Assembly: GCA_965233585.1 (NCBI GenBank)
Contig: CBDDTI010000696.1
Coordinates: 1 to 18,535, forward strand
Direction: 5' to 3'
Length of the DNA: 18,535 nt
DNA from: a bacterium
Lineage (GTDB): Bacteria > SAR324 > NAC60-12
The first letter of the stretch is position 1. Each line of letters starts with the position of its first letter. Shown here piece by piece: positions 1 through 14,129 of the stretch. The notes beneath the pieces are model-generated. The model ran no database searches, was not told the DNA's origin, and saw only the letters and a program-made list of their open reading frames with translations. The position numbers and the translations under genes are program-made.

Positions 1-339
1 TTGGCTTTTAACGAGATTAAACACATTTTCGATCGTTTGCTTAGAGTTGCAAAAATCTTGCAAAGAGCTTTTTAGGTGAGTCAGTTCTTGTTGGAAAATG
101 CAAACTTTGTCGCCAATGGCTCCTTGCCTTTTAGAAAATACCCTTGATTCCGCGTGATTCGAATCTACGTGTGACGATAACTCGTTCTTATCACTGTATT
201 TAAGTTCACAAAACGGGCACTTTCTTAACTTGTCGCGACCACTATGATTTGCTTGATTTCTGTGTTTTAATTTTAAATGATTGACAAGACGACTCTTTCT
301 GGAAAACGATATGTGACACGTTTCACACTTGTGCGTCAT
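1..339 (-). CDS. N-terminal 113 aa of a C2H2 zinc-finger protein running off the window; possibly the N-terminus of protein-primed DNA polymerase B
   Basis: Manual translation from ATG at 339 (in-frame TAA upstream at 358-360), open to base 1: MTHKCETCHISFSRKSRLVNHLKLKH...RKCPFCELKYSDKNELSSHVDSNH...NLVKSQ, containing two CxxC-x12-H-x4-H fingers. Not in the ORF track. PolB identity is inferred from context. Confidence 0.75.
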   Translation of the reverse strand, partial: MTHKCETCHISFSRKSRLVNHLKLKHRNQANHSGRDKLRKCPFCELKYSDKNELSSHVDSNHAESRVFSKRQGAIGDKVCIFQQELTHLKSSLQDFCNSKQTIENVFNLVKSQ

Positions 340-434
340 TCTTTTTTTCTCTCGCTTTTAAACTTTTTCTGAAAAAGGAAAAAATGATGTATCTTATAAT
401 CTTTAATATATACACACACAAACAATTGTTATAT

Positions 435-1205
435 TTACAATAAATTATTTGCACTTTCTACAAATTCTTGGACTTCAGTTAAATTTTTTTTATACAGATC
501 GCGTATGGAAGGGTTTAAAAATAAATTTTCCCCTTGCGACTCGTAAAATACGAGCAAGGGGGACACCTTACTTAAAATTTTTTTTAATTTTTCCGTAAAA
601 ACCTGCGGATCCGGACAGGGGCGGTTTACCCTCAAGTCGAGCCCCTCACTTATGACCCCTCCATTTACCGACACGCGCGGTAATCTTACCACCCTTTGCG
701 GTTCGGGGATGACGAGTCGTGGCGGTGCAGCTAGAAGCGGAGTTGTTATCGGTGCCGGACGGATCGGCCTTAGCTGAGCCCGCAAAGCCCTCATGTCACA
801 CAACATTGGGGATTGCGGGAGGGGCACAGCCGTTGGAGACATAATTGGTAGTCTCGGTGGAGCCGGAGTTGGGGGGCCCGGCAAGAACAAACCAGGTTGA
901 AGCGGACGATAGGGAGCCGGCATTGAATAGACCGGTGATGCCACGAGCGATGGGGAAGGCGGAGGGCTGTAACACACCGGTCTGAACGAGGTGTTTGGTG
1001 TCGAGGTTAAAAGGGGCTCAGTTCTAATTCGTATAAAGGAAGTGGAAAGGGAAGCGGGCGGTGAATTCGAAGGCAGCGCGACGGTGGAAGATGCGGACGT
1101 GAGCTCGACCGAGACTTGTTCCACAGGTGTCCTTCTTCCCAGTTTTATTTGGAAAGGCCCACACCTCTTAAAACCAATCAATCTTGATTCCCTATTTTTT
1201 GGCAT
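435..1205 (-). CDS. Pro/Ser-rich, largely disordered protein with a helical C-terminal domain; function unknown
   Basis: 256-aa ORF, GC-rich within AT-rich flanks, co-oriented with the zinc-finger ORF; no recognised family. Confidence 0.7.
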   Translation of the reverse strand: MPKNRESRLIGFKRCGPFQIKLGRRTPVEQVSVELTSASSTVALPSNSPPASLSTSFIRIRTEPLLTSTPNTSFRPVCYSPPPSPSLVASPVYSMPAPYRPLQPGLFLPGPPTPAPPRLPIMSPTAVPLPQSPMLCDMRALRAQLRPIRPAPITTPLLAAPPRLVIPEPQRVVRLPRVSVNGGVISEGLDLRVNRPCPDPQVFTEKLKKILSKVSPLLVFYESQGENLFLNPSIRDLYKKNLTEVQEFVESANNLL

Positions 1206-1242
1206 TGTCTAGAAAGCAGGGTGGTTGAAATCAGGTTTAAGA

Positions 1243-1345
1243 TTTTTTGCGTAAGCTCAATTTTGGGTAAAAAATTTTAAGACTTTGAGCACTTGTTAAA
1301 TTTTTTTTGCGTAAGCTCAATTTGTGTAAAAAATTTTTAGACTTT
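1243..1345. repeat. Two-copy direct repeat (about 44 bp, period 60) with core TTTTTTGCGTAAGCTCAATTT
   Basis: Copies at 1243-1286 and 1303-1345 read directly from the sequence. Confidence 0.85.
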
Positions 1346-1632
1346 AACCAACTTTATGTTTAAAAATATTTTTAAAAAAAAACTTCAATGTTTAAAAATT
1401 GTAAAGACTTTTTTGTCTACTTACGATTTTTTCAAGTGTCTAAAAGATAAAACCAGGATCTTTTCGGTTTCAGTTTAGATTTTGGAATGACTCCTTATCT
1501 CAAAAAGGGTCATTCATGTAAACTTTTTAATAGTAGAAAAAGGCGCAAAAATTAAACCTGGTTTTTTTCAAAAGATAATTAATTTTGGAGAAAATTTTAA
1601 CCTTTCTTGTAAATCCTTTTTATCCCCGCAAC

Positions 1633-1642
1633 CTGACGTCAG
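1633..1642. promoter_or_regulatory. Palindromic CRE/ATF-type site CTGACGTCAG in the divergent intergenic region
   Basis: Perfect TGACGTCA at 1634-1641 in a 1.1-kb AT-rich region between divergent genes; function is inferred. Confidence 0.35.
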
Positions 1643-2243
1643 ATTGTGTTTTCCGTGCAATTTTCCTTTATTTTTGTTCATTTTTCCGCACATGCATTAA
1701 GGCTTAAAGCAAAAGCGCCGAAATTGGAGCAAATTAATGACAAGATATGAGACAGTGTGTTTGCTAAAAATTGTTTTTTCTTTTAAACAACAGTCAATTT
1801 TTTAGCAGCACACCCATTAAAATAAATCAGCAAAAGGAAAAAAGATTAATTATTAAAAGGTTAACAATCGGGTCTTTGCACCCTTTTTTGCGGTCAAAGA
1901 AATAAAGAATGACAATTTTCTGGAAGGAAAATTAGCGTTGAAAACCATTAAGCAGAAAAACCATTAGCTCAAGTGAGAAAAAAAAGCACGTGCCAAGGAG
2001 CAGCATCTAAAAAGGAGAAAAAATTCTCCATTTTACAAAAGATGCCCTAATTTTAGGTCATTTTACCGACAAAAAAAATTTGAAATGAGCATTTTTAAAT
2101 TTTTTTCAAACCTTTATAAAAATAATTGCTTTTAGATTTTTCTAGTTTCTTCTAGAACTTTTTTTGCCTTAAAATGGGTTAAAAAGTTGACCACAATTTC
2201 ATCGAGAATATTCTAGCATTTGCCATTATACAAGTCAAAATAG

Positions 2244-2251
2244 TATAAAAG
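2244..2251 (+). promoter_or_regulatory. Candidate TATA box (TATAAAAG) for the 2333 gene
   Basis: Consensus TATAAAAG about 90 nt upstream of the ATG at 2333. Confidence 0.45.
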
Positions 2252-2332
2252 CCAATTTGCGCTTTTGGTGAAACACCAATAATAGTTTGACTGGCTTCAC
2301 ATCCACACCTAAGATAAAACATCGGTCGCGTC

Positions 2333-3546
2333 ATGGGTAAACCGGCTACATCATCTGAAAGCAATGGCAAAGGCAGCAAGACGATCTTGTACAAAAAAAA
2401 GGGGAAGTCTGCGCATAAAAAGGTCGCGAAAAAGACACCGTTCGAAAAAAGCCACGTTGAAAAAACGTCAAAAGTTTACACCAAAGAGCAAAAAAGTAGT
2501 AAACTTGCCAAATCCCGTTCGTCATCTGCGAACAAAGGACATAAGCAATTAGAAGATTCCGACTCAGACATGGAGAAGGATGAGGACATGAGAGACAACG
2601 AGAATTCAAGCGATGACGAGTCTGAAGAATCCGGCTCAGAGAACATGCAAGACGGCTCTGATAACGATGATAACGATGTTGAGTCTGATGCTGCCCAAGA
2701 TGATAACGAGGATGACGATGATGACGAAGATGATGACGATGCTCCGACTGATATTGAAGAACCGGAGATGGAGGATCAAAGAAAGCCGTTTTGCGCGAAA
2801 AAAAGACCAAGGTCCGATTCAGGCAAAAAGAAATTACCCGATTCAAAGAGGAAAAATTATGTCGAGCCGGAGCCGGTTTCGTCCAAGGTGGATGGGATTA
2901 ATTTGACAAGGAAAAAGCAAGAGGAGTTGTTTCGACCCTGCAAATGGGATCTTAACGAGCGCGTAAAAACCGCGGAGGTAAACTTTTCCAAGTGGCTTGA
3001 AAGCCACAGCCATCGCGAACAATATTTTATTGGAGACGACGGGGTGAGTAAAACAGTTCAGAATCAGCTCAGCGTATTTTTAATTTAAAAACTTTTCTGC
3101 GCTGTTTTGCTCAACAGTACATCTACCCTAATCCAGCCACCATGAAAAAGTTTATTGAGGCTTTTAAAAACAAGGAGGTGTCATCGCGATCGGTGAGCTT
3201 GCCTTTTGCCCCAATGAGCAAAGTGATTGCATCCAACCCTAGGATGGTAATTGGAGTTAGCGGCGTTAGGCATATCCAGCGTGCTGCGGGCCTTAGCGTG
3301 TGGCCGGTATTTTACGTCTCTAAAGAGCAGGTAAGGCGAAATAAAAATGTAAATAGAAAAAAATTGAGCGGAAAAATGCGTAAAAAATCTTTTTTCCCGC
3401 AGTATAACGACAACAACAAAAGCCACAGCACCAAGATAATTAGGATGAATTTTCCTCTGCACAAGTTGGATGAATTTACCGAGGGTATGGTGGAGCTGTG
3501 TCAAGGTCTGGATTTCCCCATCAATGCCAAACTCGGCGGCAAGTGA
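2333..3546 (+). CDS. Predicted spliced gene (exons 2333-3043 and 3118-3546, 379 aa): Lys-rich N-terminus, long Asp/Glu tract, globular C-terminal domain; possible nucleic-acid-binding or chaperone protein
   Basis: Donor GGG|GTGAGT at 3044 (phase 0) and pyrimidine-rich acceptor TTTTGCTCAACAG| at 3117. Splicing fuses the 251-aa and 134-aa ORFs in frame (...YFIGDDG|YIYPNPATMKKF...). Confidence 0.7.
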
Positions 3547-3669
3547 AGATGCGTGTGTGCAACCGCGGCAACAGCCGCGGCAACGGCGGCGACTGCAGCT
3601 TTGCTGCAGAACAGAAATCAGATTTGCGGCTTTTTATTAACTAAAACATTATAGGCAATTCTGTATATT

Positions 3670-4155
3670 CTAATAAAGCTTGACTTGCAAACAATTAACT
3701 AAATGTTTGACGCGTTTTTCATTTTCGCGTAAATTAATGGGATTAAAAAAAGTGCAAAAGTGCCGCGGATTCGCGTTTGCGTATGCATTGACAAACATGC
3801 AGAATGCGGCAGCATACCACCCGCAAAACAATGAATCGAAAGCTTGAATCGATCGGTCCAGGACATGTCTTATTCTGCCGCAATTTTCCCATTTTTTCAA
3901 AAAATGGATGAGGTGGTGATTATAGGCGGGCACGGGTAGTGCATAGCTGTCGAAATAATACAAATAGTTTTGCTTATTAATAAAAAAGGCGATGAAATGA
4001 CTGCCGGGATGGCTTGAAACCGAAAGATTGACGATGGCGCAACAGCTAGTGTTCCACAAGTTTGAGGGTAACGTGTCGACTGCAAAGGTGCCGATGAAAT
4101 TCTTGCAAAGTGGGGATAAAAACCGATCTAGAAATACGTTGCTCAAACCGGCCAT
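3670..4155 (-). CDS. Adenain-like (adenovirus/Ulp1-type, clan CE) cysteine protease for virion maturation
   Basis: Motifs IVN...GSHF (catalytic His), YYFDSYA (Asp) and IQ..DSLFCGWY (oxyanion Gln and catalytic Cys), typical of Polinton PRO. Confidence 0.92.
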   Translation of the reverse strand: MAGLSNVFLDRFLSPLCKNFIGTFAVDTLPSNLWNTSCCAIVNLSVSSHPGSHFIAFFINKQNYLYYFDSYALPVPAYNHHLIHFLKKWENCGRIRHVLDRSIQAFDSLFCGWYAAAFCMFVNAYANANPRHFCTFFNPINLRENEKRVKHLVNCLQVKLY

Positions 4156-5489
4156 TATCGCTCTTCGGCCCTAACAACTTGGCCGTTCTCCTCTATTTTA
4201 ATTCCGGAATTAAAAATGCTGTAGGCTAGCAGGTAGATGGGGTGAGGCTTGGCTGTTTTAAAGCCTAATTCCAAGTCCAACTTGCCTTTTTCGTCGGGGT
4301 GAATGTGAAAACTGTTGCAGCGATCGGGGGTCAAATCGGCAGTTAGAAAACATCTTCCTCTCTTAAAAACCGCGGGCGAAATGTCGCAAGAACTATTTGA
4401 AATGCCGAAACCCGTGCTGTCGTACATGTGTCTGTACAGGTCCATGTAGTTATCATCATCAAAATCCGGCTGAAAAGCTTTTGGGAAGACGCATTGTCCG
4501 TTTTTAATAAGATTGAAATAATTAAGATCAAAGTGTTGAAAGTCGAACGGGTTGAATTTGCTATCGTGCGTCAAGGCTTGGTTGTGAATTAGGGTGAAAA
4601 TAACTTGTTTGGGCAGTATTTGTGAGGCAATATTGGTAACGGTGTACGATGTGACGCCGGCTGGAATCACAAAAACCTTCAACTGACTCAGCTTAAAGGG
4701 TATATAGCAGGGCTGTTGAGACATTTTCATCCTAAAATGCTTTCTCTGCTGCTCGACCGGCAAAACTTTTCTCATTTTCAACTTTAAATCCTTTAAAACG
4801 ATTTTAAAAGATTTGTCATCTTCGGCGTGAAGAATACCGAATGTCGGACTGTTTCTAATAAGCTTAATCTTGATGTCGACATTCGGTGGCATATACTTAT
4901 CCGTATACATAATATCCGCCCCCAATCGAGAGCAGAAATAAACTTTTTTGCCGTGAAGTATAAGATTTCGACGGTGTATTAAACGCTGATTTATACCGGG
5001 CTCGCAAGCTCCAATATCGTTTTCTTTTTCTTCAAAATAACCTTCGGCTCTTAGCTGACTCTGTTTGGCCTCTCTATCAAACGACAACTCGGTCTGGATA
5101 AAGTTTTTGAAAGGGTAGGAATTTGCCGTGCTCAAGTCGCAGACTTGAGTACCGTTAATGTAGATTTCAACCGCGCTAAATAGATTGCTCGCGAAATTAT
5201 TGGCCAGAAAGACTCGATCGTCGGGTCCGACATTTTCATCCTTTGCTGTCTTGACAACGAAATGCCCTATTAATCTAGTCTGATCCAGAATGATGGAACA
5301 CTCTTCGTCTCGCGGGATGATGAATTCGATCGGTCCGGTGTTTGAAACGCTGGAAACGCTGTTGTAGACCACATCATTGCCTTTTTCAAGGCTTATATCG
5401 ACCCCGAGCGGCGCGTGCAGATCAAGAGCTTGTTCTGTCAAATCGTCCTGCTCGAACCCTAGACCTCCGATGCCGCCCTTTTCAGTCAT
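4155..5489 (-). CDS. Polinton-type double-jelly-roll major capsid protein, paralog 1
   Basis: Motifs GPIEFIIP, NNFASNLFSAVEIYING, YPFKNFIQTELSF, KYMPPNVDIKIKLIRN, LPKQVIF, NPFDFQHFDL, DLTPD, GKLDLELGF; 444 aa, next to the protease. Confidence 0.9.
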   Translation of the reverse strand: MTEKGGIGGLGFEQDDLTEQALDLHAPLGVDISLEKGNDVVYNSVSSVSNTGPIEFIIPRDEECSIILDQTRLIGHFVVKTAKDENVGPDDRVFLANNFASNLFSAVEIYINGTQVCDLSTANSYPFKNFIQTELSFDREAKQSQLRAEGYFEEKENDIGACEPGINQRLIHRRNLILHGKKVYFCSRLGADIMYTDKYMPPNVDIKIKLIRNSPTFGILHAEDDKSFKIVLKDLKLKMRKVLPVEQQRKHFRMKMSQQPCYIPFKLSQLKVFVIPAGVTSYTVTNIASQILPKQVIFTLIHNQALTHDSKFNPFDFQHFDLNYFNLIKNGQCVFPKAFQPDFDDDNYMDLYRHMYDSTGFGISNSSCDISPAVFKRGRCFLTADLTPDRCNSFHIHPDEKGKLDLELGFKTAKPHPIYLLAYSIFNSGIKIEENGQVVRAEER

Positions 5490-5558
5490 TGTCGAAAATG
5501 CATGCTAGTCTGTAGTTTTCTGTTCTTCTTAAAAAGAGGGAGTCGGTGGTGTGCAATT

Positions 5559-6899
5559 TTAATATTTTATTTTGGTAACCTGAAGGTTGCTGTCGATGGA
5601 AATGGCAGCATTATAAATAGCGTAAGAAATCAGGGTTAGGGGGGTTCTGGTGGGGGTGTTAAAAGTCAAGTCTAGTTCTAAATTTCCGGGCACTCCGACG
5701 TGATTGTGAAAGGATAGGCATTTATCCGGAGTCAGGTCGAACGCGAGAAACATCTGACCCTCTGTAAAAGCTTGGGGTGAAATACAATTTCTGCCGCCGA
5801 CGTTGCTTTGAAAATGGTCGTACAATTCCATATAATCGCCTGTAAGTATCTTGCATTCTATAGGTCTAGGCATGAGAAGTCTTCCATTGTTTTTTAAAAT
5901 GACGGATGCTAAATCGGCGTGTTTAAATTTAAAGGGAAATTGATCGCTCGGTCCCTTGGCAAAAAGGTCGCTTCGAAGCATGCAGAAAATAATTTGTTGC
6001 GGCAACATCTCGCTATTGTTGATGTGATTTGCAGAGAAACTAAGGGAACCAGACGGGATCAGATAATGCTTCATCTGCGTGTCTTTAAAAGGCAGAAAAA
6101 ATGGTCGACCTTTTAGCAGTTCGGCGTTTAGCCTGTTTCGCACACGCTCGCACGGTAACACTTTTCTCATGCGAAGTTTTAATTCCTTTAAACGAATGCG
6201 ATAGACTTTGTTCGGATTATCTTGAAGCAGCCCGAAACACGGGTTGAACCTGCGTAATACAACAGTGATTTCCACATTCGGAGGTAAATATTTGTCGGTG
6301 TAAAAAATATCTGCGGGCAAAGTTGAGCTAAAATAAACTTTTTTGTCGTTTATTATTTTCGCGCGATTCTCCGCGATGCATTGGCACATTTTACCGGTCG
6401 TGGTAATATTGTCAAAGCATTTGTCGTGGTGCGTTCGGCAAAAGCCTTCGGACCGTCCCACATTTGTTAATACATTATTGTTATAGGACAGGAGAAAGTC
6501 AATGTGGTGTTTGTACGAATAAGAAAGAGGGGCACTCAAATCACATATTTGAGTTCCGTTAAGGTGGACTTCAATTTGCGAGAATAATGCGGCGCAATAA
6601 TGGTTAGTAATTGTTGGCGTGTCAGTGTCTGTTACACCCTCGCCGCTGTCGGTCTTTACCACAAAGTAACCCTCTAGCCTTGTCTGATTTAAAACAAAAG
6701 CGCATTCGGGGTCGGAAGGAATTGAAAACGTAACATCTTCTAAATCTTCGACGGGAGTCACGCTATTATATAACACAGTACGACCTGATATTAAATCCGT
6801 GTCTTCGAGGGGGGTCGCATGCGCATTCAAACTATCACCCTGCAATTCATTGAAATCCACATTTAAACCGCCGACACCGCCATTAATCAACGATGACAT
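5559..6899 (-). CDS. Polinton-type double-jelly-roll major capsid protein, paralog 2
   Basis: Colinear with paralog 1 (LNQTRLEG, LFSQIEVHLNGTQICDLS, KYLPPNV, LPQQIIF, FDLTPD, GNLELDLTF); 446 aa. Confidence 0.9.
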   Translation of the reverse strand: MSSLINGGVGGLNVDFNELQGDSLNAHATPLEDTDLISGRTVLYNSVTPVEDLEDVTFSIPSDPECAFVLNQTRLEGYFVVKTDSGEGVTDTDTPTITNHYCAALFSQIEVHLNGTQICDLSAPLSYSYKHHIDFLLSYNNNVLTNVGRSEGFCRTHHDKCFDNITTTGKMCQCIAENRAKIINDKKVYFSSTLPADIFYTDKYLPPNVEITVVLRRFNPCFGLLQDNPNKVYRIRLKELKLRMRKVLPCERVRNRLNAELLKGRPFFLPFKDTQMKHYLIPSGSLSFSANHINNSEMLPQQIIFCMLRSDLFAKGPSDQFPFKFKHADLASVILKNNGRLLMPRPIECKILTGDYMELYDHFQSNVGGRNCISPQAFTEGQMFLAFDLTPDKCLSFHNHVGVPGNLELDLTFNTPTRTPLTLISYAIYNAAISIDSNLQVTKIKY

Positions 6900-7453
6900 T
6901 TTTAGACAACACGGAGCACGTCACTGTGACAAATATAAAGCTTAGCTGCACAATTATTCTTACGGATGAGGGGCCGTTATCCTTAAATAAAGATGTGTCA
7001 CAAAAAGTTTTTAGTAATTTTACTGTAGTGAGGAAACAATACGTCTACACCATTTTCAAGACCCGCGGAAACAACAAATCATATCATGTCAATATTACCA
7101 AAGTGCCGTCGCGAGCGGATATAAAAATATCGTTAAGTCTGCTGACGGACATTATCAGCAATCGTTTCTTTGTGCAAACATGGGAAATAAACAATTTAAC
7201 TTGTTCCTTTCGTGCGGGCTTTGAGATACCGCTGCCGGACGTTTTTGATAAACTTCGAAAGGAGAGCTACGTGAAAAAAGTACGCTTCAATCCCGAACGT
7301 TTCCCGGGCATGTTTGTGACTTTTGAAGCCAACACGGTTTTAATATTTTCCACAGGCAAGATGGTAATCATCGGGGCCAAGTCCGAAGATGCGGTCAAAC
7401 ATAGTTTGGACTTTATTATAGATTTTTTGAAACAATATAAAAGCGATCGATAG
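6893..7453 (+). CDS. TBP: TATA-box-binding-protein-like protein (divergent, intronless, core domain only)
   Basis: C-terminal repeat INNLTCSFRAGFEIPL...RFNPERFPGMFVTFEANTVLIFSTGKMVIIGAKSEDAV matches the TBP signature (Y.PE.FPGL....LIF.SGK.V.TGAK). The N-terminal repeat is degenerate (VTNIKLSCTI...TIF...HVNITKVPS). 186 aa is the size of a TBP core. Confidence 0.88.
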   Translation: MTFLDNTEHVTVTNIKLSCTIILTDEGPLSLNKDVSQKVFSNFTVVRKQYVYTIFKTRGNNKSYHVNITKVPSRADIKISLSLLTDIISNRFFVQTWEINNLTCSFRAGFEIPLPDVFDKLRKESYVKKVRFNPERFPGMFVTFEANTVLIFSTGKMVIIGAKSEDAVKHSLDFIIDFLKQYKSDR

Positions 7454-7471
7454 TTGATTTGCGTTTCAGTT
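7436..7471 (+). promoter_or_regulatory. TATA + Inr core promoter upstream of the TFIIB-like gene
   Basis: TATAAAAG at 7436-7443 and TCAGTT at 7466-7471; the Inr A (7468) is 32 nt from the first T of TATA; ATG at 7497. Confidence 0.6.
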
Positions 7472-7496
7472 TTGCAGCGCGTGCGGAGAAATAAAC

Positions 7497-8219
7497 ATGC
7501 CTCGCTTTCATAATTTCAACAGGACTTGTTCTCATTACAATATTGTGGATGATTTTTCAAACGGGTGTGAAGTATGTACAGATTGCGGGCTCGTGATGCA
7601 TGATCGGCTATATGCCTCGTATGACTATCGGCTCGAATCGATTAAAACGGAGAAAATGAGCGAGGATGTGACTTGCGACAAAAACAATTTTACTGATGAG
7701 ACAATGCAAAGGGTATGCTATAAGTGCAATATCGAATGCGCGGATTTAAAACGCGTCATCGCCAAAAAATGGGACGCTAGCGGGAAAAGAGGGAAAAGAG
7801 GTGTTTGTTTAGAAAGTTTAGCGGTAATGTGCATCTACTCCGCGCTTATAGAGTCGGGGGTGCCGCGACCGATGAAAGATTTATGTGCCATAACCGGCGT
7901 CAAGCAGGACAAAGTGTGGCAATATCTTAAAAACGACGACTCTTTCTACAGCCCAAATTTAATGTGCGAATATTTTCTTCACTCTTTAAATCTAAGCTAC
8001 AAGGAGTTGAAGGAAATTAGAGAGAAAGTAAAGCAACACGAAAAAAAGTTTGTTTTTTCGCCAAAAACACTAATCGCGGCATGCGCGCACGTCTTTTTAA
8101 GAGAACAACGGAGTAGGGTTGATCAGGAAAAGCCGAAAAGCTTATCACGTTTAGCCGAGCAATTAGGCGTTAGTCCGATGGCCTTAAGCAGGTGCGTCAA
8201 AAAAATTGAAAATTGTTAA
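7497..8219 (+). CDS. TFIIB: Transcription initiation factor IIB-like protein (Zn ribbon plus two cyclin-fold repeats)
   Basis: N-terminal CSH..IVDD...G.EVCTDCGLV zinc ribbon; repeat 1 LAVMCIYSALIESGVPRPMKDLC (cf. [20 protein letters not shown]); repeat 2 SPKTLIAACAHV...KSLSRLAEQLGVSPMALSRCVKKI helix-turn-helix. Confidence 0.88.
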   Translation: MPRFHNFNRTCSHYNIVDDFSNGCEVCTDCGLVMHDRLYASYDYRLESIKTEKMSEDVTCDKNNFTDETMQRVCYKCNIECADLKRVIAKKWDASGKRGKRGVCLESLAVMCIYSALIESGVPRPMKDLCAITGVKQDKVWQYLKNDDSFYSPNLMCEYFLHSLNLSYKELKEIREKVKQHEKKFVFSPKTLIAACAHVFLREQRSRVDQEKPKSLSRLAEQLGVSPMALSRCVKKIENC

Positions 8220-8222
8220 AGT

Positions 8223-8651
8223 ATGCGATACCACCGTGGTCCGTCTGTGCAAGCTGGGGCGGGATTAGGTTCAATTTTTAGCAGTCTTTTCCGGTCGTTG
8301 GTTCCGGTGGCGAAGGGCGCCGCAAAGACAATCGGTAAAATTGCGAGAAGCGAGGGTGTCAGATCCGCAGGACGATATTTGAAAAAAGAGGCGGGACGAG
8401 CGGCCATTGACACCGCACTGGAAGCCTTGGACGGCAAAGCAGTTGGAGCCGCTGCGAAAAAGAGATTAAAATCCGCGACTAGAAACATCTTACTGGCTGG
8501 TAAGGCGAGTAGGCCTGCACAGGCGTCCAAGAGACCGGTCAAGAGAAAAAATAGCACGCATGCGGTAGGAAGCGGTAAGAGAAGAAAAACAAAACAAAAA
8601 CCGCTGTTTTATGTTGAGGACGACAACGACGACGACGAGGATGATTACTAA
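8223..8651 (+). CDS. Polinton core/membrane-lytic protein (QxGxG plus amphipathic helix; cupiennin-like or adenovirus pX/pVI-analogous)
   Basis: QAGAGLGSIFSSLFRSLVPVAK is the recurrent Polinton small basic protein motif; Lys/Arg/Ala-rich body and acidic tail. Confidence 0.75.
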   Translation: MRYHRGPSVQAGAGLGSIFSSLFRSLVPVAKGAAKTIGKIARSEGVRSAGRYLKKEAGRAAIDTALEALDGKAVGAAAKKRLKSATRNILLAGKASRPAQASKRPVKRKNSTHAVGSGKRRKTKQKPLFYVEDDNDDDEDDY

Positions 8652-9720
8652 ACGCGAATTTTTAAAAGCTTACACTTCGCCCGGCTCGCCTTTTGCTTTT
8701 TCATCGCCGAACCGCGTTTTTAATCATTTTAACGGGACCATACCCATAAATAAAATAAAGAAATGGCTGCAGGCGTCAGACACCTATACTCTGCACTGAC
8801 AACCTAGGGCTCCAAAACCTAGGAACCCAACCTATGTTTATTACAAAAGATATCAATTCCAAATAGACTTGGTTGAAATTGGAAAAATGGCAAGCGCGAA
8901 TGACAATTATCGTTACTTGCTGACAGCGATCGACATTTTTTCGAGATATGCCTTTGTTGAACCCATAAAAAACAAGACAGCTTTGGTTTTTTTACAAGGA
9001 TTCAAAACCATTGTCAATAAGGCTGGCCAGCCGCCTCGAAAAATTCTAGCTGATAGAGGGTTAGAGATCAAAAATAAATTTTTTAAAGACTACTGTCGAC
9101 GTAATGGCATTACTCTTTTACACAGCGACAACTTTGTGCACGCGCCGTTTGTGGAAAGATTTAACAGATCTCTAAAAAGTCTAATGTTTAAATATATGAC
9201 ATCTAGAGGTACGGATCGATTTATCCACGTGCTTCAATCTTTAGTAAAGACGTATAACTCGCGCGTACATAGAATGATCGGTATGAGTCCGGCTGAAGCG
9301 GAAAAAGCAAAAAACGCGCCCAAAGTCCGAATGAAACAAGAAGAGGCTTATGCGAAAATAAAGAGGCGACCGCCTAAATTTAAGAAAGGCCAGACGGTCA
9401 GAATAAGTAACTACAGAGCTCAATTTGACAGAGGTTACAATAAGCAATTTACTGAAGAAATTTACAAGATCAAACGGGTGTTTACGCGATTACCCATACC
9501 TACATACGAACTGGAAACTCTGGACGGTGACGAGACGGTAGAGGGAAATTTTTATGCTAATGAGCTGACTCTGGCCAAGCCGCCGGAATTATTTCACATT
9601 GAAAAAATTGTTAAAAGGAAGAAAGATAAAAGAACCGGGCAGAAGTTGGTGTTGGTCAAGTGGAAAGGCTATAAAAACCTTAGCTGGATTGCGGAAGATA
9701 ACGTTATTAATCAGGCGTAA
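8641..9720 (+). pseudogene. Polinton retroviral-like DDE integrase with C-terminal chromodomain, interrupted by one in-frame TGA at 8797-8799
   Basis: One frame from ATG 8641: MITKREFLKAYTSPGSPFAFSS...WLQASDTYTLH*QPRAPK...FQIDLVE...IDIFSRYAF...ADRGLE...VERFNRSLK...YNSRVH...IEKIVKR...LVKWKGY...SWI. The two ORF-track pieces (8611-8799, 8869-9720) are in this same frame. Confidence 0.9.
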
Positions 9721-9725
9721 CAAGT

Positions 9726-11318
9726 ATGAAAGGAGGACATCTTATATATTGCATTTCAAACGCCAGCACTGATTGTTACGTAAACACGCTAACGCGTTTT
9801 AACAATTTTTTACCGAAAAATTTAGAATTAAACAAAAGAAGAGATTGGGAAGTTGGGGTTGTAGCTTTTGGTCTGCATTTAAACGTAAAACAAGATTTTG
9901 TTTTTGACGTGGTGCAGGTTAAATCCAACATTGTGTCTACAAGCTCAAATGAGAATTCTCACATCTTATGCGTGGCCGACTTGCCTTCAAGCAAAAAACG
10001 GAAATATTTCTACCATACTTTAAACAACATACGATATTATCCTATTCAAAACACTTCAATAAAATCAGTGGGCATTGAGTTTCTAGACGCGTCCGACAAA
10101 CTTCTAAAACTAAAATCGGGTCAGCCGAGTCTAGTTTTACTTCATTTGCGAAAAACAAAACGAGCGATGTCATATTTGACAAAGCACATTCGCGTCGACT
10201 CAAAAATGGGCGACAACATAAAACCTGCGCAGAAAAACAACAATTTCGAGGTACATTTGAGCCATCCCATTTATTTGAACGAAGGAGCTAAAATAGCCTT
10301 AGCCGACATCTCCTTTCCAAATCGTGTTAACAGCGTTCCGTCAAGCGTTTTTGATAAGAAAATTAAAGTAAGTACAGACCCGTTCAAGCAAGAAATCGAG
10401 GTCAAACTTGATCAGCAGAAAACAATTGCTTATTTATTAAATTGCTTAAACGACGGAAGAGACAGCGTAGTACGTAATTTTGTTGAATTTGGGCAAACGG
10501 AGAAAACAAAAGAATCGGTCGATATCTTTTTTCGAGTAATTTACACCGGACCGTCGACGTACGATGCCGAATTTAAATCACCTGAGGTAAAAGTGCTGAT
10601 ACCGCCCGAATTTAAAAACATTTTGGGAATCAAAGAAGAATATATTGTTATGGGACCGGAGAAAAAAGAATTTATATCGCAACAGCCAATGCAAAACCCT
10701 GACCCAACAGAAACATTTCCACCTGTGAAAATCAGGGTAATAATTGAAACAATGCAATTTTGCTTTTGCATTGAGAAGAGGTTTATCAAAACAACGGATG
10801 AATTAATCGAGGCCATGTCTAATGGTATGAGCAAAGATTTACAAAGTCTCATTCAAATTTCCGCGCATAAAGACCGTTTTAAAGTAAAACGGGTCGGCAA
10901 TCAATTCAATCGCTCCTTGGTAGTAAGGATAAGAGTGCCGCATGAAATAAGATTATTGCTAGGAATAAGTCAAGATGATGACATTGTTTTGGCGGATGAA
11001 AGTAATCAATTTATAAGTGACGAACGTCTAGATCCGCACTATCTATATCCGGGAGTGATGATCTGCTATGCCAATTTCGTCAATCACTCGGTAATTGGAG
11101 ACGAGTTTTACCCTGTATTAAAAGTTATACCAATTAATAGAGCCGAGGAACAAGACAATTATGTGACGACGCATTTTGAAAATTTGGAATACATAAAGTG
11201 TAATACAAGTCGACTGGATTTGTTGCATTTTCAGTTAAAAAGACTTGACGGAGAATTGATTAATTTTGAAACAAATGAAAAAATCATGATGAATCTAGCC
11301 ATACAAAACCCTAAATAA
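9726..11318 (+). CDS. Minor capsid (penton) protein with two tandem single-jelly-roll-like modules
   Basis: The penton N-motif occurs twice (SNAS..YVNTLTRFNNFLPKNLEL...WEVGV; DSK...NNNFEVHLSHPIYLNEGAKIALADISFP). The C-motif also occurs twice (YYPIQNTSIKSVGIEFLD...LVLLHLRK; SVIGDEFYPVLKVIP...EYIKCNTSRLDLLHFQLKRLDGELINF). Confidence 0.8.
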   Translation: MKGGHLIYCISNASTDCYVNTLTRFNNFLPKNLELNKRRDWEVGVVAFGLHLNVKQDFVFDVVQVKSNIVSTSSNENSHILCVADLPSSKKRKYFYHTLNNIRYYPIQNTSIKSVGIEFLDASDKLLKLKSGQPSLVLLHLRKTKRAMSYLTKHIRVDSKMGDNIKPAQKNNNFEVHLSHPIYLNEGAKIALADISFPNRVNSVPSSVFDKKIKVSTDPFKQEIEVKLDQQKTIAYLLNCLNDGRDSVVRNFVEFGQTEKTKESVDIFFRVIYTGPSTYDAEFKSPEVKVLIPPEFKNILGIKEEYIVMGPEKKEFISQQPMQNPDPTETFPPVKIRVIIETMQFCFCIEKRFIKTTDELIEAMSNGMSKDLQSLIQISAHKDRFKVKRVGNQFNRSLVVRIRVPHEIRLLLGISQDDDIVLADESNQFISDERLDPHYLYPGVMICYANFVNHSVIGDEFYPVLKVIPINRAEEQDNYVTTHFENLEYIKCNTSRLDLLHFQLKRLDGELINFETNEKIMMNLAIQNPK

Positions 11319-11384
11319 AAAACATGATCTGTATTTGAGCACATTAAAATAAAATTTTGATGTGTATTTCTAGTTTAAACGCGA

Positions 11385-11639
11385 TTAAACATTATCATTT
11401 TCTGATTTGTCTGGTTCTGACCAAGCAGCGTAGAATGCTCCTACGGTTGAAAAGAGCAAGAAAAAAATTAATGCCATTATAATAAATGGGGTTGAGGTTC
11501 TTGTATTATCTGACGACGATAGGAGTTTATCCAAGGTGTTAATTACAATCTTGTTAATAGCGTTCGTTGTGATGTTGGGGGCGGCGGTAACGTTTGACAC
11601 GTCTGCCACTTGATAATTGTCTTGGCGGGGGGAACTCAT
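11385..11639 (-). CDS. Small single-pass membrane protein, unknown function
   Basis: 84 aa with hydrophobic stretch FIIMALIFFLLFSTVGAFYAAW; start overlaps the upstream stop (ATGA, 11636-11639). Confidence 0.6.
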   Translation of the reverse strand: MSSPRQDNYQVADVSNVTAAPNITTNAINKIVINTLDKLLSSSDNTRTSTPFIIMALIFFLLFSTVGAFYAAWSEPDKSENDNV

Positions 11640-12247
11640 TCTTGTATTTCAAATTCAAGAGAAGCGGCCGCGGAGTATTTAGAGCGGTTGTAATTTTGCG
11701 GGTTAACATACACCCCATCTTCTAACATACCCATAATTTCCCTCTTTAATTTTCTCGCCTGTCTAGCCATTTGTCGAAATTTTTCAATCGATCTCTCCAA
11801 TAACTTTTCTTCTTTGTGAGCATCTTCACGAGTCATATCAATGGGAAAACTCAACTTTAGTTTTTCGAGCTCAAAAACGAGGTAAGAGACGTTTGCCATC
11901 AAATTCTCTAGAATGCTTTTAACATGGTAGGACCTTTGGTGCGTCAACGGTGACCAATTAAAACAGTTTGGTACGGTGTAAGACAATGGATTCGGAGTTT
12001 CTATTTTTGGTTGATTTTCATCGGCAATCCAGGCATCAGTCGGCTGAGTTTCAGGAAATGGAGGGATGATTGTTTTATAACCACTCGTGTCACTATTTTC
12101 CGATTCATCGTTTGTAACGGGTGAAGAATTTGCTATTGTCATCTGACTATCGTTTTTCATCCAGGACTCGGTCATCTGCGTTTCTGGGAATGGAGGAATG
12201 ATGGATCTATAACCAGACATGTCTCTAATTCCTGTTTCGTCAGTCAT
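11636..12247 (-). CDS. Unknown protein with a duplicated N-terminal IIPPFPETQ motif and a helical/coiled-coil C-terminus
   Basis: 203-aa ORF; upstream minus-strand TATATAAG (12315-12308) with a TCATT Inr-like element near 12287. Confidence 0.7.
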   Translation of the reverse strand: MTDETGIRDMSGYRSIIPPFPETQMTESWMKNDSQMTIANSSPVTNDESENSDTSGYKTIIPPFPETQPTDAWIADENQPKIETPNPLSYTVPNCFNWSPLTHQRSYHVKSILENLMANVSYLVFELEKLKLSFPIDMTREDAHKEEKLLERSIEKFRQMARQARKLKREIMGMLEDGVYVNPQNYNRSKYSAAASLEFEIQE

Positions 12248-12671
12248 GTTGATGTTGATTTTTCAAGTGATGGATTTGAAATGCAATGAAATGTGATGTT
12301 CAGGCTGCTTATATACCTTATTACAAAGGAACTTTCTAGAAAACCCTAGAAAAAATTGCGGACAGGTTGAAAAATGTATCTTGTCAAAAATTAAAAAATT
12401 CTTTTACAAAATACCTCCAATCCTAATTGTTTCTAAATGATAGGAATGTTCTAGAAATGGGAAGAATTTATAAAAAGAACAAAAAAGGAAACATCTGCTT
12501 TGCGCAAAAATATTATGTAGAAAACACCAGAAAAAATCGCGGTCAGTTCAAAGGTGATTTTTGGAAAAAATTAAAATTGCATGGTAAAAAATACCAAGGA
12601 ACCATACAACTTTTTCGAGAAATCAAATTTATATAAAACCTTTTTGTGCTAAAAACAAAAAAACACAATTG

Positions 12672-12715
12672 ATTAAATTATTGATAAAAATCACATTAAA
12701 TTATTGATAAAAATC
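12672..12715. repeat. Perfect 21-bp direct repeat ATTAAATTATTGATAAAAATC x2
   Basis: Copies at 12672-12692 and 12695-12715. Confidence 0.8.
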
Positions 12716-12949
12716 GCTCGTTTACTGATACCATTACAGCAAGAAAATTTACACAGAATGAAGAAGAACATTGTGACATTGCAACACCAGTTATGGTAAA
12801 AAAGAAAAAAGCTCTGCTTCTTTTCTCCAATTTACTCAACTATGGACCACTGACATTCTGGTGCCGGGATCTAAAATTTCATGCCAGCATCAAAATTGAG
12901 ATCCAGGCACCAGAAAAAGTAATGCAGACAAGTAAAATTTTGATGCGTG

Positions 12950-13220
12950 CATGAAATTTTTAGTGCGTGCACCAACTTTTTCATGCCTGCATTAGACAGA
13001 GCAATGCAGGCACCAAACTTTTCATGCACGCACCAAACTTTTCATGCAGGCATTAGACGGAGCAATGCAGGCACCAAACTTTTCATGCACGCACCAAACT
13101 TTTCATGCCAGCATTAGACGAAGCAATGCAGGCACCAAACTTTTCGTGCACGCACCAAATTTTTCATGCCAGCATTAGACACAGCCATGCAGGCACCAAA
13201 CTTTTGGTGCACGCACCAGA
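12950..13220. repeat. Minisatellite, 61-bp period, about 4.3 copies, built from roughly 20-bp subunits (TTTTCATGCACGCACCAAAC)
   Basis: CATTAGAC recurs at 12990, 13051, 13112 and 13173. Confidence 0.92.
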
Positions 13221-13230
13221 AATCGGTGTG

Positions 13231-13338
13231 CATTTAGATGCATTTAGATTGAATCAGTTGACGTTTTGCTTGCAACGAGAACGCATCTAGATGAATTTAG
13301 ATGAATTTAGAACGCATTTAGATGAATTTAGATGAATT
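13231..13338. repeat. Degenerate 10-bp tandem repeat (ATTTAGATGA/C)
   Basis: Multiple ATTTAGATG units at 13232-13250 and 13285-13338. Confidence 0.8.
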
Positions 13339-13389
13339 CGGGCCGAAAACATCTAAAAACAAGCTTCTGTCATCCGTTTTTACTACAAC

Positions 13390-14129
13390 ACACGGATTTA
13401 ATATCGGGTCGTACTGTGCTATATAATAGCGTGACTCCCGTCGAACGTTTAGAAGATGTTACGTTTCCAGTTCCTCCCGAACCCAAATGTGCTTTTATTT
13501 TAAATCAGACGAGGCTAGAGGGTCACTTTGTGGTAAAGACTGACAGCGGTGAGGGCGTAGGACCGACTGATACGACAACAATTAATAACCATTATTGTGC
13601 CGCCCTATTCTCGCAAATTGAAGTCCACCTCAACAGCACTCAAATCTGTGATTTGAGTGCTCCTCTTTCTTATCCGTACAAGCATCACATAGATTTTCTC
13701 TTGTCCTACGATAATAATGTTAAAACAAGTGTGGGCCGGTCCGAGGGCTTTTGCCGGACGCACCATGGCGAATGCTATGACACGATTGACGCATCTGGTA
13801 AGTTGGCTCTGTGTCAGGACTTTGCGGAGAATCGACAGAGAATAATGAACGGCAAAAAAGTTTACTTTAGCTCGACTTTGCCTGCCGATATTTTTCACAC
13901 TGATAAATATCTACCTCCGAATGTCGAAATCTCCATCGTATTCCGCAGGTGCAACCCTTGTTTCGGCGCGATTCAAAATAATCCGCACAAAGTCTTTCGC
14001 ATTCGTTTAAAGAAATTAAAACTTCACATGAGAAAAGTGCTACAGTGCAAGCGTGTGTGAAATAGGCTAAACGCCGAACTGCTGAAAGGCCGACCTTTTT
14101 TTCTGCCCTTTAAAGACACACAGATGAAG
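13390..14129 (+). pseudogene. Truncated, inverted fragment of a major capsid gene closely related to paralog 2; premature TGA at 14058-14060
   Basis: Aligns by eye with the reverse complement of about 6069-6802 from TDLISGRTVLYNSVTPVE to RV*NRLNAELLKGRPFFLPFKDTQMK. It lacks the N-terminus and the C-terminal third. The first ~20 aa of the 13332 ORF come from repeat DNA. Confidence 0.92.

What the first reader, a model, noticed from the sequence alone, without database searches (positions are those of the whole stretch)
6893..8219. Polinton-like virus encoding its own TBP and TFIIB pair: a candidate viral pre-initiation module
Seen: two adjacent, intronless, co-oriented ORFs with TBP and TFIIB signatures sit between the capsid genes and the core-protein/integrase/penton block. 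Established: TBP plus TFIIB is the minimal promoter-recognition and polymerase-recruitment unit. Both are encoded by many Nucleocytoviricota, which also carry their own RNA polymerase, but they are not part of the canonical Polinton/adintovirus gene set as I know it. Inference: no RNA polymerase gene is in the window, so this element may redirect host Pol II to viral (late/structural) promoters using a divergent TBP-TFIIB, conceptually like the herpesvirus vPIC. The TBP is asymmetric (repeat 2 conserved, repeat 1 degenerate), hinting at altered DNA specificity. The TFIIB has a non-canonical region between the ribbon and the core.
Basis: partly seen in the sequence, partly recalled or inferred. 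Interest (0 to 1): 0.92.

Follow-up and report, generated by a model that had tools for sequence, protein, structure and literature searches.

The report
Polinton virus element with own TBP–TFIIB
A 20-kb virus-like mobile element integrated many times in a eukaryotic (probably animal) genome carries its own, conserved copies of the two proteins that normally mark a promoter and call in RNA polymerase II, although it has no polymerase of its own.

Summary
ORF 6893-7453 is a TATA-binding protein (Pfam TBP 9.9e-17; model pLDDT 90, full two-repeat saddle, TM 0.68 to solved TBPs). ORF 7497-8219 is a compact TFIIB: CxH…CxxC ribbon plus two cyclin folds (profile to human TFIIB 7.9e-10; every Foldseek row to rank 42 is TFIIB/TFB/Brf).

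They lie in a ~20.6-kb Polinton/Maverick element with an intron-bearing protein-primed PolB, rve-chromo integrase, adenain-like protease and ~600-bp terminal inverted repeats. The window holds 13.4 kb of it. The contig is eukaryotic DNA inside an assembly filed as prokaryotic.

The pair is not a one-off. In this assembly 41 of 41 TBP matches have the TFIIB gene directly downstream, across clades down to 39%/30% identity, with dN/dS 0.06-0.28. Two unrelated metagenome contigs (27-35% identity) keep the order MCP-like | TBP-TFIIB-basic protein-integrase. A second Polinton lineage in the same assembly lacks the pair.

No RNA polymerase was recognised, PolB has GT-AG introns and several genes have TATA boxes, so I infer the pair recruits host Pol II to element promoters. 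That is not shown.

My paper searches found only a "TBP" label in one adintovirus figure legend and no TFIIB. Verdict: new variant of a known kind.

The parts
6893..7453 (+). TBP homologue (186 aa). Repeat 2 is canonical and repeat 1 is divergent in sequence. Its start overlaps the start of the divergent MCP-like gene by 7 nt.
   Evidence: Pfam TBP 9.9e-17; PDB profile 5.3e-26; model pLDDT 90.3 and Foldseek TBPs at TM 0.68; dN/dS 0.16-0.28
7497..8219 (+). Compact TFIIB-like protein (240 aa): C11-x-H13…C27-x2-C30 zinc ribbon, a short variable linker (about residues 40-66), and two cyclin folds (about 67-240).
   Evidence: dN/dS 0.06-0.25; predicted to bind the TBP C-terminal stirrup, score 0.65 against best control 0.00
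5559..6899 (-). MCP-like gene A (446 aa), divergent from TBP. Capsid identity is not verified by sequence.
   Evidence: Atlas features score 0.98 to eukaryote clusters, one with PF21738 DJR-like in 15% of members; no Pfam, PDB or PHROG hit
4155..5489 (-). MCP-like gene B (444 aa), a paralogue of A at 39-40% identity.
3670..4155 (-). Adenain-like cysteine protease (161 aa), with H53, D69, Q104 and C111 invariant in the family alignment.
   Evidence: Profile A7 to adenovirus proteinase 1avp, 2.6e-4; Pfam Peptidase_C5 0.079
8223..8651 (+). Small basic protein (142 aa) with an acidic tail. A counterpart sits at the same place in L047 and L048. Possibly a core or pX-like protein (inference only).
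8611..9720 (+). rve integrase with a C-terminal chromodomain. This copy has an in-frame stop at codon 63 (8797-8799). In the 13 other copies examined no stop falls at that codon, and the nine closest (93-99.7% identical) read to the normal end.
   Evidence: Pfam rve 39.3 bits against 32.6, Chromo 24.9 against 25.1
9726..11318 (+). 530-aa protein, candidate virion (penton-like) protein. A TATAAAAA box lies 56 nt upstream of its start.
   Evidence: Atlas score 0.97 to clusters mostly from Preplasmiviricota; the TATA box is conserved in 5 of 8 loci
1..3546 (.). Left part of the element as held in the window: the N-terminal part of a C2H2 zinc-finger gene (1-339, minus strand) and ORFs 435-1205 (-), 2333-3088 (+) and 3142-3546 (+) of unknown function. 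The element continues beyond the contig end.
11385..12247 (-). Two ORFs (84 and 203 aa) of unknown function. The second is preceded by a TATATAAG box at -68.
12840..13383 (.). Right terminal inverted repeat, including 61-bp tandem units at 12969-13218.
13387..14129 (+). Flank: a fragment of an MCP-like gene from another, 85-87% identical copy.

Best explanation
Shown. The window carries 13.4 kb of a ~20.6-kb Polinton/Maverick-type integrated virus-like element in eukaryotic, probably animal, DNA. The element encodes a true TBP homologue and, directly downstream, a compact TFIIB homologue. The pair is a fixed, selected part of one Polinton lineage.

Inferred. The element is transcribed in the nucleus by host RNA polymerase II. 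Its TBP binds TATA-type boxes upstream of element genes. Its TFIIB binds the C-terminal stirrup of that TBP through the cyclin core, and binds the polymerase dock through the zinc ribbon. Together they would form a private promoter-recognition and polymerase-recruitment unit. That unit would make element expression independent of host TBP/TFIID supply or regulation.

The short, unconserved segment between ribbon and core suggests that start-site reading or promoter opening differs from cellular TFIIB.
For: Identity.

Conserved linkage:
- 41 of 41 TBP matches in the assembly have TFIIB just downstream, 40 of 41 have the MCP-like gene divergent upstream, and 39 of 41 have the integrase downstream.
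- This holds across clades at 100, 93, 84, 61, 45 and 39% TBP identity.
- Metagenome contigs L047 and L048 have the same order at 27-35% identity.

Selection: dN/dS is 0.16-0.28 for TBP (9 computable pairs of 10) and 0.06-0.25 for TFIIB (10 pairs).

DNA-binding positions that are invariant across element and archaeal TBPs: N14, F55, T69, N101, F137-P138-G139, F152.

Ribbon ligands: H13, C27 and C30 are invariant and C11 is in at least 90% of 25 sequences.

TBP-TFIIB contact: the predicted complex scores 0.65 against a best control of 0.00. That mark was reached by 116 of 157 solved complexes and 2 of 215 mismatched pairs. The runs agree in at least 76% of contacts, and partner pLDDT is at least 81. 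The interface is TBP 113-119, 129-136, 138, 153 with TFIIB 125-127, 141-151, 182-189. This is a textbook pair, so the pass may reflect likeness to solved complexes.

Nuclear Pol II setting:
- PolB has three GT…AG introns at conserved positions.
- No RNA polymerase family was found among the 24 ORFs scanned.
- TATAWAWR occurs 23 times in the window against 8.64 expected, reached by 0 of 200 shuffles.
- In the window it lies 56-89 nt upstream of four genes. The box is positionally conserved upstream of the 530-aa gene in 5 of 8 loci and upstream of TFIIB in 3 of 8.
Against: - No expression data: no RNA run holding the sequence was listed, so transcription of the pair is not shown.
- The window copy of TFIIB is below both Pfam cut-offs.
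- The segment corresponding to the B-reader/linker is short and unconserved. A factor without it might not support initiation in the cellular way.
- TBP repeat 1 is not detectably homologous to repeat 2 by profile comparison. Its saddle rests on a predicted model.
- TATA boxes would serve host TBP equally well, so they do not show that the element's TBP is used.
- A second Polinton lineage in the same assembly does without the pair, so it is not essential for Polinton expression in general.
- The complex prediction may be from memory of solved TBP-TFIIB structures.
Confidence: 0.62

Rival explanations
1. Interference rather than recruitment. The pair acts as a decoy that sequesters host promoters, host TFIIB/TBP partners or Pol II. 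The result would be host shut-off or escape from host repression of TBP (NC2- or Mot1-type control), not direct driving of element promoters.
For: The ribbon-to-core segment that cellular TFIIB needs for start-site reading is short and unconserved. TBP repeat 1, the side that cellular partners such as TFIIA use (recalled knowledge), is strongly diverged and has an insertion.
Against: The ribbon ligands and the TBP-contacting PRP motif of TFIIB are conserved, which fits a factor that still bridges TBP and polymerase. A decoy would need only one of the two proteins, yet both are kept in all 41 loci.
Confidence: 0.15
2. The pair serves another polymerase. It would work like TBP with a Brf- or Rrn7-type TFIIB-family factor, driving Pol III (or Pol I) transcription of small element RNAs.
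For: Foldseek and VIA-align also list Brf1 and Brf2 chains, with Z 9.3-10.6 against 12.4 for TFIIB. The PDB profile weakly hits the TFIIIB 50-kDa subunit (0.15).
Against: The best sequence and fold matches are TFIIB proper. The protein ends right after the second cyclin fold, so it has no Brf-type C-terminal extension. TATA boxes sit upstream of protein-coding genes.
Confidence: 0.07
3. Passenger genes: a captured host TBP and TFIIB with no role for the element, or an assembly artefact, or archaeal contamination.
For: The contig sits in an assembly filed as prokaryotic. By E-value, archaeal TBPs are the nearest named relatives.
Against: dN/dS is 0.06-0.28. Synteny is fixed in 41 loci and in two unrelated metagenome contigs. 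Archaeal TBP models score 47 bits against a cut-off of 181. The contig's setting is eukaryotic: spliceosomal-type introns, BEL/Pao and Ty3-like retroelements, and low ORF density.
Confidence: 0.02

Closest known systems
TBP and TFIIB homologues of Nucleocytoviricota (giant viruses)
   Same: They are virus-encoded homologues of both general factors. With the TBP model, the top BFVD matches are NCLDV TBPs (4.2e-11, TMq 0.67).
   Different: Giant viruses also encode a multisubunit RNA polymerase, and many transcribe in the cytoplasm (recalled knowledge). This element is ~20 kb, has no recognised polymerase gene and has intron-bearing genes. An NCLDV TFIIB found in IMG/VR (L076, 318 aa) passes both Pfam cut-offs and is only 28% identical over residues 11-129.
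Herpesvirus late-gene pre-initiation complex (vPIC; TBP-like BcRF1/UL87 family)
   Same: It is a nuclear DNA virus without its own polymerase that supplies a TBP-like protein to bring host Pol II to its own promoters (recalled knowledge). BcRF1 appears at rank 46 of the BFVD search (1.1e-3, TMq 0.36).
   Different: The herpes protein is a remote structural mimic inside a larger protein and has no TFIIB homologue beside it (recalled knowledge). Here both proteins are plain sequence homologues of cellular TBP and TFIIB.
Polintons/Mavericks and adintoviruses (Starrett et al. 2021, PMC8502044)
   Same: The element shares pfam03175-type PolB, rve integrase, adenain-like protease, inverted terminal repeats, size and integration in eukaryotic genomes (paper sections 3.1-3.4 read).
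   Different: The gene sets described in those sections include no TBP or TFIIB for animal adintoviruses. [quoted passage not shown] Which element carries it could not be seen, because the figure is not held. TFIIB is not mentioned. The one supplementary file held as text has no TBP, TATA or TFIIB term.
Cellular TBP-TFIIB-TATA ternary complex
   Same: The TBP has a two-repeat saddle with kept Asn and Phe DNA-contact positions. The TFIIB has a ribbon plus two cyclin folds. The predicted contact runs through the TBP C-terminal stirrup.
   Different: The TBP has no N-terminal extension, repeat 1 is diverged with an insertion, and repeat 2 has Ile where archaeal TBPs have the conserved Thr. The TFIIB has 240 aa against 316 aa for human TFIIB (length), with about 27 residues between ribbon and core.

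Membership tests
TATA-binding protein (TBP) | Sequence match to the TBP repeat above the curated threshold | tested here: met
   PF00352 scores 61 bits against a cut-off of 22.9, for residues 98-182 only. L047 and L048 relatives score 56.9 and 68.2 bits.
TATA-binding protein (TBP) | Two tandem repeats forming one saddle | tested here: met
   The model has pLDDT 90.3. Foldseek aligns 186-208 columns to solved TBPs at TMq 0.60-0.69. Repeat 1 is not detectable by sequence, so this rests on a predicted structure.
TATA-binding protein (TBP) | DNA-contact residues: a central Asn in each repeat and paired Phe in each repeat | tested here: met
   N14, F55, T69, N101, F137 and F152 align with the invariant archaeal positions. 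N42-F43 is nearly invariant in the family, but its equivalence to the first Phe of repeat 1 is uncertain by about 3 columns.
TATA-binding protein (TBP) | Binds and bends TATA DNA | not testable with these tools
   Needs EMSA or a footprint.
TFIIB / TFB family | N-terminal zinc ribbon | tested here: met
   H13, C27 and C30 are invariant and C11 is in at least 90% of 25 sequences. PF08271 scores 21.9 bits against 29 for the window copy. By my count PF08271 is precomputed on 53 of 107 family clusters. The ribbon aligns to human TFIIB 22-45.
TFIIB / TFB family | Core of two cyclin-like repeats | tested here: met
   The profile matches human TFIIB at 7.9e-10 over positions 64-225. Foldseek rows to rank 42 are all TFIIB, TFB or Brf. 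VIA-align gives Z 12.4, rmsd 7.3, 166 aligned. PF00382 is below cut-off for the window copy (13.8 against 23.6) but above it for L047 (32.4).
TFIIB / TFB family | Conserved B-reader and B-linker between ribbon and core | tested here: inconclusive
Only about 27 residues separate ribbon and core. Residues 35-63 have pLDDT below 50. Length and sequence vary across the family.
TFIIB / TFB family | Binds the TBP C-terminal stirrup and the polymerase dock | tested here: inconclusive
   TBP contact is supported by prediction only: score 0.65 against best control 0.00, for a textbook pair. The polymerase contact was not tested.
Polinton / Maverick | Protein-primed family B DNA polymerase | tested here: met
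   PF03175 scores 30.4 and 26.0 bits against a cut-off of 25.8, on two exons in the full copy L009. This lies outside the window, in the part of the element beyond the contig end.
Polinton / Maverick | Retroviral-type (rve) integrase | tested here: met
   39.3 bits against 32.6, plus a chromodomain at 24.9 against 25.1. The window copy has an in-frame stop.
Polinton / Maverick | Adenain-like maturation protease | tested here: met
   The profile matches 1avp at 2.6e-4, with His, Asp, Gln and Cys invariant.
Polinton / Maverick | FtsK/A32-type packaging ATPase | tested here: inconclusive
   Only Pfam ATPase_2 at 0.0027, 18 bits against 33.2. No PDB or NCBIfam hit.
Polinton / Maverick | Double jelly-roll major and single jelly-roll minor capsid proteins | tested here: inconclusive
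   No Pfam, PDB or PHROG match. One of 61 sequence relatives has a source name, 'transposase-like protein'. The only support is Atlas feature similarity.
Polinton / Maverick | Terminal inverted repeats and a short target-site duplication | tested here: inconclusive
   The inverted repeats are present: 545-605 bp at 86% identity, with the terminal 40 nt perfect. No target-site duplication was seen at the one copy with both ends examined.

The most novel reading that the evidence does not exclude
The pair is a self-sufficient 'private' pre-initiation module. A 20-kb nuclear virus without a polymerase would bring host Pol II to its own promoters without TFIID. This Polinton-borne TBP-TFIIB would also share descent with the giant-virus factors, which would mean that capture of general transcription factors came before polymerase capture on the path from Polinton-like viruses to giant viruses.
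Probability: 0.12. Interest if true: 0.9.

Novelty: new variant of a known kind. Interest (0 to 1): 0.72.

Why it matters
Polintons and adintoviruses are described as relying wholly on the host for transcription. Virus-encoded TBP and TFIIB were known to me only from giant viruses, which also bring their own polymerase.

A whole Polinton lineage that keeps both factors under purifying selection gives a small, tractable system in which two proteins and a handful of promoters can be tested. It can be used to ask how a nuclear DNA virus privatises promoter recognition. It also adds a data point on when transcription genes entered the Polinton-to-giant-virus lineage.

The family is not rare. Searches found 106 unnamed TBP clusters and 107 TFIIB clusters at 90% identity. 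A wider set of short CxH-ribbon TFIIB-like proteins has 118 representatives at E<=1e-30 in public data, none of them named.

Tried and rejected
Wider searches for relatives
- IMG/VR scan with the TBP profile: 79 pattern matches, none a relative.
- IMG/VR scans with TFIIB profiles: one giant-virus contig with a canonical TFIIB (L076) and three weak hits on large viral contigs, none of this family.
- GTDB genome scan: 17 loci, all true archaeal TBPs in records titled as archaeal MAGs.
- JGI metagenome scan: of 12 loci, only L047 and L048 match both TBP halves. The other 10 match residues 127-185 only.
- Phage collection tblastn: no match.
- Earlier findings of this scan: nothing by place, words or sequence.

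Expression
- No RNA holder was listed for window 3600-11400.

Capsid identity
- Profile A6 against PDB: 0 hits. Pfam at E<=10: only noise. PHROGs: none. Of 61 sequence relatives, one has a source name, 'transposase-like protein'.
- ATPase: no PDB or NCBIfam hit.

Other tests
- Internal repeat test of TBP by hhalign: not significant.
- Host markers: no tubulin or COX1 on the small contigs, only actin fragments. No canonical host TBP is in the assembly, so element and host TBP could not be compared.
- Alternative stop-codon readings of the small contigs were uninformative.

Left open
- Origin of the pair (host, archaeal or giant-virus). No labelled eukaryotic or giant-virus sequences were available for a tree. 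Archaeal TBPs score best, probably because both of their repeats resemble the element's repeat 2. The ribbon is of the Cys-His…Cys-Cys kind, and the best TFIIB match is human.

Rejected
- Archaeal or prokaryotic origin of the contig.
Full report
**What is at the coordinates.** The window has two co-oriented, uninterrupted ORFs at 6893-7453 (186 aa) and 7497-8219 (240 aa), separated by 43 nt.

**The first ORF is a TBP.**
- Pfam PF00352 matches residues 98-182 at 9.9e-17, 61 bits against a cut-off of 22.9.
- phmmer against PDB sequences finds 35 TBP chains, the best at 3.1e-17.
- A profile of 11 copies from the same assembly reaches 5.3e-26.
- Only the C-terminal repeat is recognisable by sequence. 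A profile-profile comparison of the N half with the C half is not significant (E 0.28).
- The AlphaFold model (pLDDT 90.3, pTM 0.80) nevertheless folds the whole protein as a two-repeat saddle. All 44 Foldseek matches at E<=0.001 are TBPs, aligned over 186-208 columns with TMq 0.59-0.69.
- Aligned with archaeal TBPs, these positions are invariant: N14, F55, T69, N101, E135, F137-P138-G139, F152, G155-K156. They include the central Asn of each repeat and at least three of the four Phe positions that I recall as DNA-kinking residues.
- Across 26 family members N42-F43 is also nearly invariant.
- Repeat 1 has an insertion before its last strand. Repeat 2 has Ile where archaeal TBPs have the conserved Thr.

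**The second ORF is a compact TFIIB.**
- The window copy is below Pfam cut-offs: Zn_Ribbon_TF 21.9 bits against 29, and TFIIB repeat 13.8 against 23.6.
- phmmer puts human TFIIB first at 2.3e-6. The profile of 11 copies gives 7.9e-10, with one stretch on the ribbon and one on core positions 64-225.
- H13, C27 and C30 are invariant and C11 is present in at least 90% of 25 sequences.
- The model (pLDDT 69.9) has a small ribbon, a low-confidence segment at residues 35-63, and ten helices arranged as two cyclin folds.
- Every Foldseek row listed down to rank 42 is a TFIIB, TFB or Brf chain, best 1.7e-6. TM-scores are low (0.29-0.35) because the domains are oriented differently.
- VIA-align gives Z 12.4, rmsd 7.3, 166 residues aligned, for model 64-240 against yeast TFIIB 127-319. 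For helical proteins that Z alone is not decisive. Together with the sequence matches it is.
- A family member on metagenome contig L047 passes the Pfam TFIIB-repeat cut-off, 32.4 bits against 23.6.

**The element.** The window is a whole contig (C696) of a 12-Mb assembly. Comparing it with the other contigs shows that window 1-13383 is part of a repeated unit.
- A full copy spans C530:21086-41724, 20.6 kb. Its inverted terminal repeats are 545-605 bp long at 86% identity, and their outermost 40 nt are perfectly inverted.
- The part missing from the window encodes the rest of a C2H2 zinc-finger protein and a pfam03175 protein-primed PolB in four exons.
  - The PolB exons score 30.4 and 26.0 bits against a cut-off of 25.8.
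  - The junctions read GTAAGT…TTTAG, GTAAT…TTTCAG and GTAAAA…TTTCAG, and the gaps recur at the same places in diverged clades.
- The missing part also encodes a 243-aa weak ATPase candidate and ORFs of 117 and 504 aa.
- Inside the window are an rve integrase with chromodomain and an adenain-like protease: the profile matches 1avp at 2.6e-4, with His, Asp, Gln and Cys invariant.
- Also inside are two paralogous 445-aa genes and a 530-aa gene. Their capsid or penton nature I could not confirm by sequence. Only Atlas feature similarity points that way.
- No ORF of the element matches an RNA polymerase family.

**The host setting.** The assembly is filed as prokaryotic, but it is mixed.
- Five contigs over 100 kb (2.9 Mb) have ORF density 0.79-0.89.
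- The 742 small contigs (9.09 Mb) have a median density of 0.13, and a third of their DNA is repeated on other contigs.
- Twenty long ORFs from the small contigs were scanned against Pfam:
  - 3 BEL/Pao-type;
  - 4 Ty3-like retroelements;
  - 2 HYDIN/CFAP65-like;
  - 1 TPR-CHAT;
  - 1 rhabdovirus-type fusion glycoprotein;
  - 3 others with single domains;
  - 6 with no hit.
- I read this as eukaryotic, most likely animal, DNA. I recall BEL/Pao elements as restricted to animals.
- Archaeal TBP models score 47 bits against a cut-off of 181, so this is not an archaeal gene.

**Is the pair a one-off?** No.
- The assembly holds 41 TBP matches on 35 contigs. All 41 Pfam TBP matches in the assembly lie on those same 35 contigs, and no canonical host TBP is present.
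- 41 of 41 have the TFIIB gene directly downstream, 40 of 41 have the MCP-like gene divergent upstream, and 39 of 41 have the integrase downstream. The exception is a truncated copy on C670.
- The copies fall into clades at about 100, 93, 84, 61, 45 and 39% TBP identity, and down to about 30% for TFIIB. Both ORFs are intact in all ten representative loci taken.
- dN/dS is 0.16-0.28 for TBP (9 of 10 pairs; one pair was saturated) and 0.06-0.25 for TFIIB (10 pairs).
- Two JGI metagenome contigs, L047 and L048, have TBPs only 35% and 27% identical. Both keep the order MCP-like (minus strand) | TBP-TFIIB-small basic protein-integrase. L047 also has the adenain-like gene.
- The big protein collection holds 106 unnamed TBP clusters and 107 unnamed TFIIB clusters of this family. 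For 22 of the 105 distinct 'longest contig' lengths of the TBP clusters, a TFIIB cluster shows the identical length, a circumstantial sign of co-location.
- A second Polinton-like lineage in the same assembly (C581, C657, C304; PolB 30-35% and integrase 30-34% identical) has no TBP or TFIIB. The pair therefore marks one lineage.

**How it most likely works.**
- Shown: the identities, the linkage and the selection.
- Inferred: the element is transcribed by host Pol II in the nucleus. Three observations point that way: the spliceosomal-type introns in PolB, the absence of a polymerase gene, and the TATA boxes.
  - TATAWAWR occurs 23 times in the window against 8.64 expected, reached by 0 of 200 shuffles.
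  - On the right strand it lies 56-89 nt upstream of four ORFs in the window.
  - The box before the 530-aa gene is kept in 5 of 8 loci, and the box before TFIIB in 3 of 8.
- The TBP keeps its DNA-contact positions, the TFIIB keeps its ribbon, and the two are predicted to bind each other:
  - The complex scores 0.65 against a best control of 0.00. That mark was reached by 116 of 157 solved complexes and 2 of 215 mismatched pairs.
  - The runs agree in at least 76% of contacts, and partner pLDDT is at least 81.
  - The contacts are TBP 113-119, 129-136, 138 and 153 with TFIIB 125-127, 141-151 and 182-189. They involve the TBP C-terminal stirrup and the TFIIB PRP motif, which is invariant among the 11 own-genome copies.
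  - TBP-TFIIB complexes are solved, so this pass shows likeness, not binding.
- I therefore take the pair to be a private promoter-recognition and polymerase-recruitment unit (confidence 0.62).
- Against this reading:
  - There are no expression data.
  - TATA boxes would serve host TBP as well.
  - A sister lineage manages without the pair.
- Rivals are a decoy or host shut-off role (0.15), service to Pol III or Pol I (0.07), and functionless passengers or artefact (0.02).

**Comparison with what is known.**
- With the TBP model, BFVD returns giant-virus TBPs first, and herpesvirus BcRF1 at rank 46. No named Polinton, adintovirus or virophage protein is among the 50 rows, though many rows lack names.
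- Nine full-text searches combined polinton, Maverick or adintovirus with TBP, TATA, TFIIB or 'transcription initiation factor'. They gave listings in which I saw no description of such a module. I read matching passages in two papers, and they were irrelevant.
- For Starrett et al. 2021 I read the outline, sections 3.1, 3.2 and 3.4, and the passages of its preprint.
[quoted passage not shown] The legend stands in the section on non-animal datasets.
  - TFIIB is not mentioned, and the figure itself is not held.
  - The one supplementary file held as text has none of the terms.
- So a TBP-like gene in a related virus has been noticed in print. The conserved TBP-TFIIB pair as a lineage trait has not, as far as these searches reach. 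Subscription journals are not covered.

**A wider family.** With a 25-sequence profile, the exhaustive search of 1.84 billion representatives finds 118 proteins at E<=1e-30 and 1186 at E<=1e-10. The 150 listed are mostly 210-290 aa. A sample of 18 of them plus P0230 shares the CxH…CxxC ribbon and the PR motif. Their genomic settings could not be fetched.

**Verdict.** The mechanism is inferred. I rate it a new variant of a known kind, with interest 0.72.

Noticed in passing
whole assembly G000 (window = contig C696): The assembly is filed as one prokaryotic genome (92% complete, 2% contamination) but is mixed. Five contigs (2.9 Mb) look prokaryotic. About 9.1 Mb in 742 small contigs is repeat-rich eukaryotic, probably animal, DNA with BEL/Pao and Ty3-like retroelements.
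   Followed up: partly
window 4155-5489 and 5559-6899: There are two tandem paralogous MCP-like genes (39-40% identity) in this clade. The clades with 39% TBP identity and metagenome contig L047 have only one.
   Followed up: partly
window 8797-8799: The integrase of this copy has an in-frame stop at codon 63. None of the 13 other copies examined has a stop there, and the nine closest read to the normal end, so the window copy is slightly decayed while TBP and TFIIB are intact.
   Followed up: yes
L009 (C530:33000-42500) 1766-5334: The protein-primed PolB is split into four exons by three short GT…AG introns with T-rich 3' ends. The gaps recur at the same positions in clades down to about 60% identity.
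   Followed up: partly
window 12840-14129: The right inverted repeat contains 61-bp tandem units. It abuts a fragment of an MCP-like gene of another copy. One end of the C530 copy has a similar flank beginning with the same 8 bases, which hints at nested insertion or a preferred target inside related elements. No target-site duplication was seen.
   Followed up: partly
G000 contigs C581, C657, C304: A second, distantly related Polinton-like lineage (PolB 30-35% and integrase 30-34% identical) has no TBP or TFIIB.
   Followed up: partly
G000 C523:37328-41893 (L029): A 1521-aa ORF carries a Monjiviricetes-type viral fusion glycoprotein domain (2.7e-43). It lies on a contig that also carries an element copy. 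Whether it belongs to an element was not examined.
   Followed up: no
proteins P0295-P0431: A large unnamed family of short (mostly 210-290 aa) TFIIB-like proteins with a CxH…CxxC ribbon exists in public (meta)genomes: 118 representatives at E<=1e-30. Their genomic context is unknown.
   Followed up: partly
window 6893-6899: The start codons of TBP and of the divergent MCP-like gene overlap head to head by 7 nt. Other clades have 0-20 nt between them. Each gene's promoter must therefore lie inside the other's coding sequence or far upstream.
   Followed up: no
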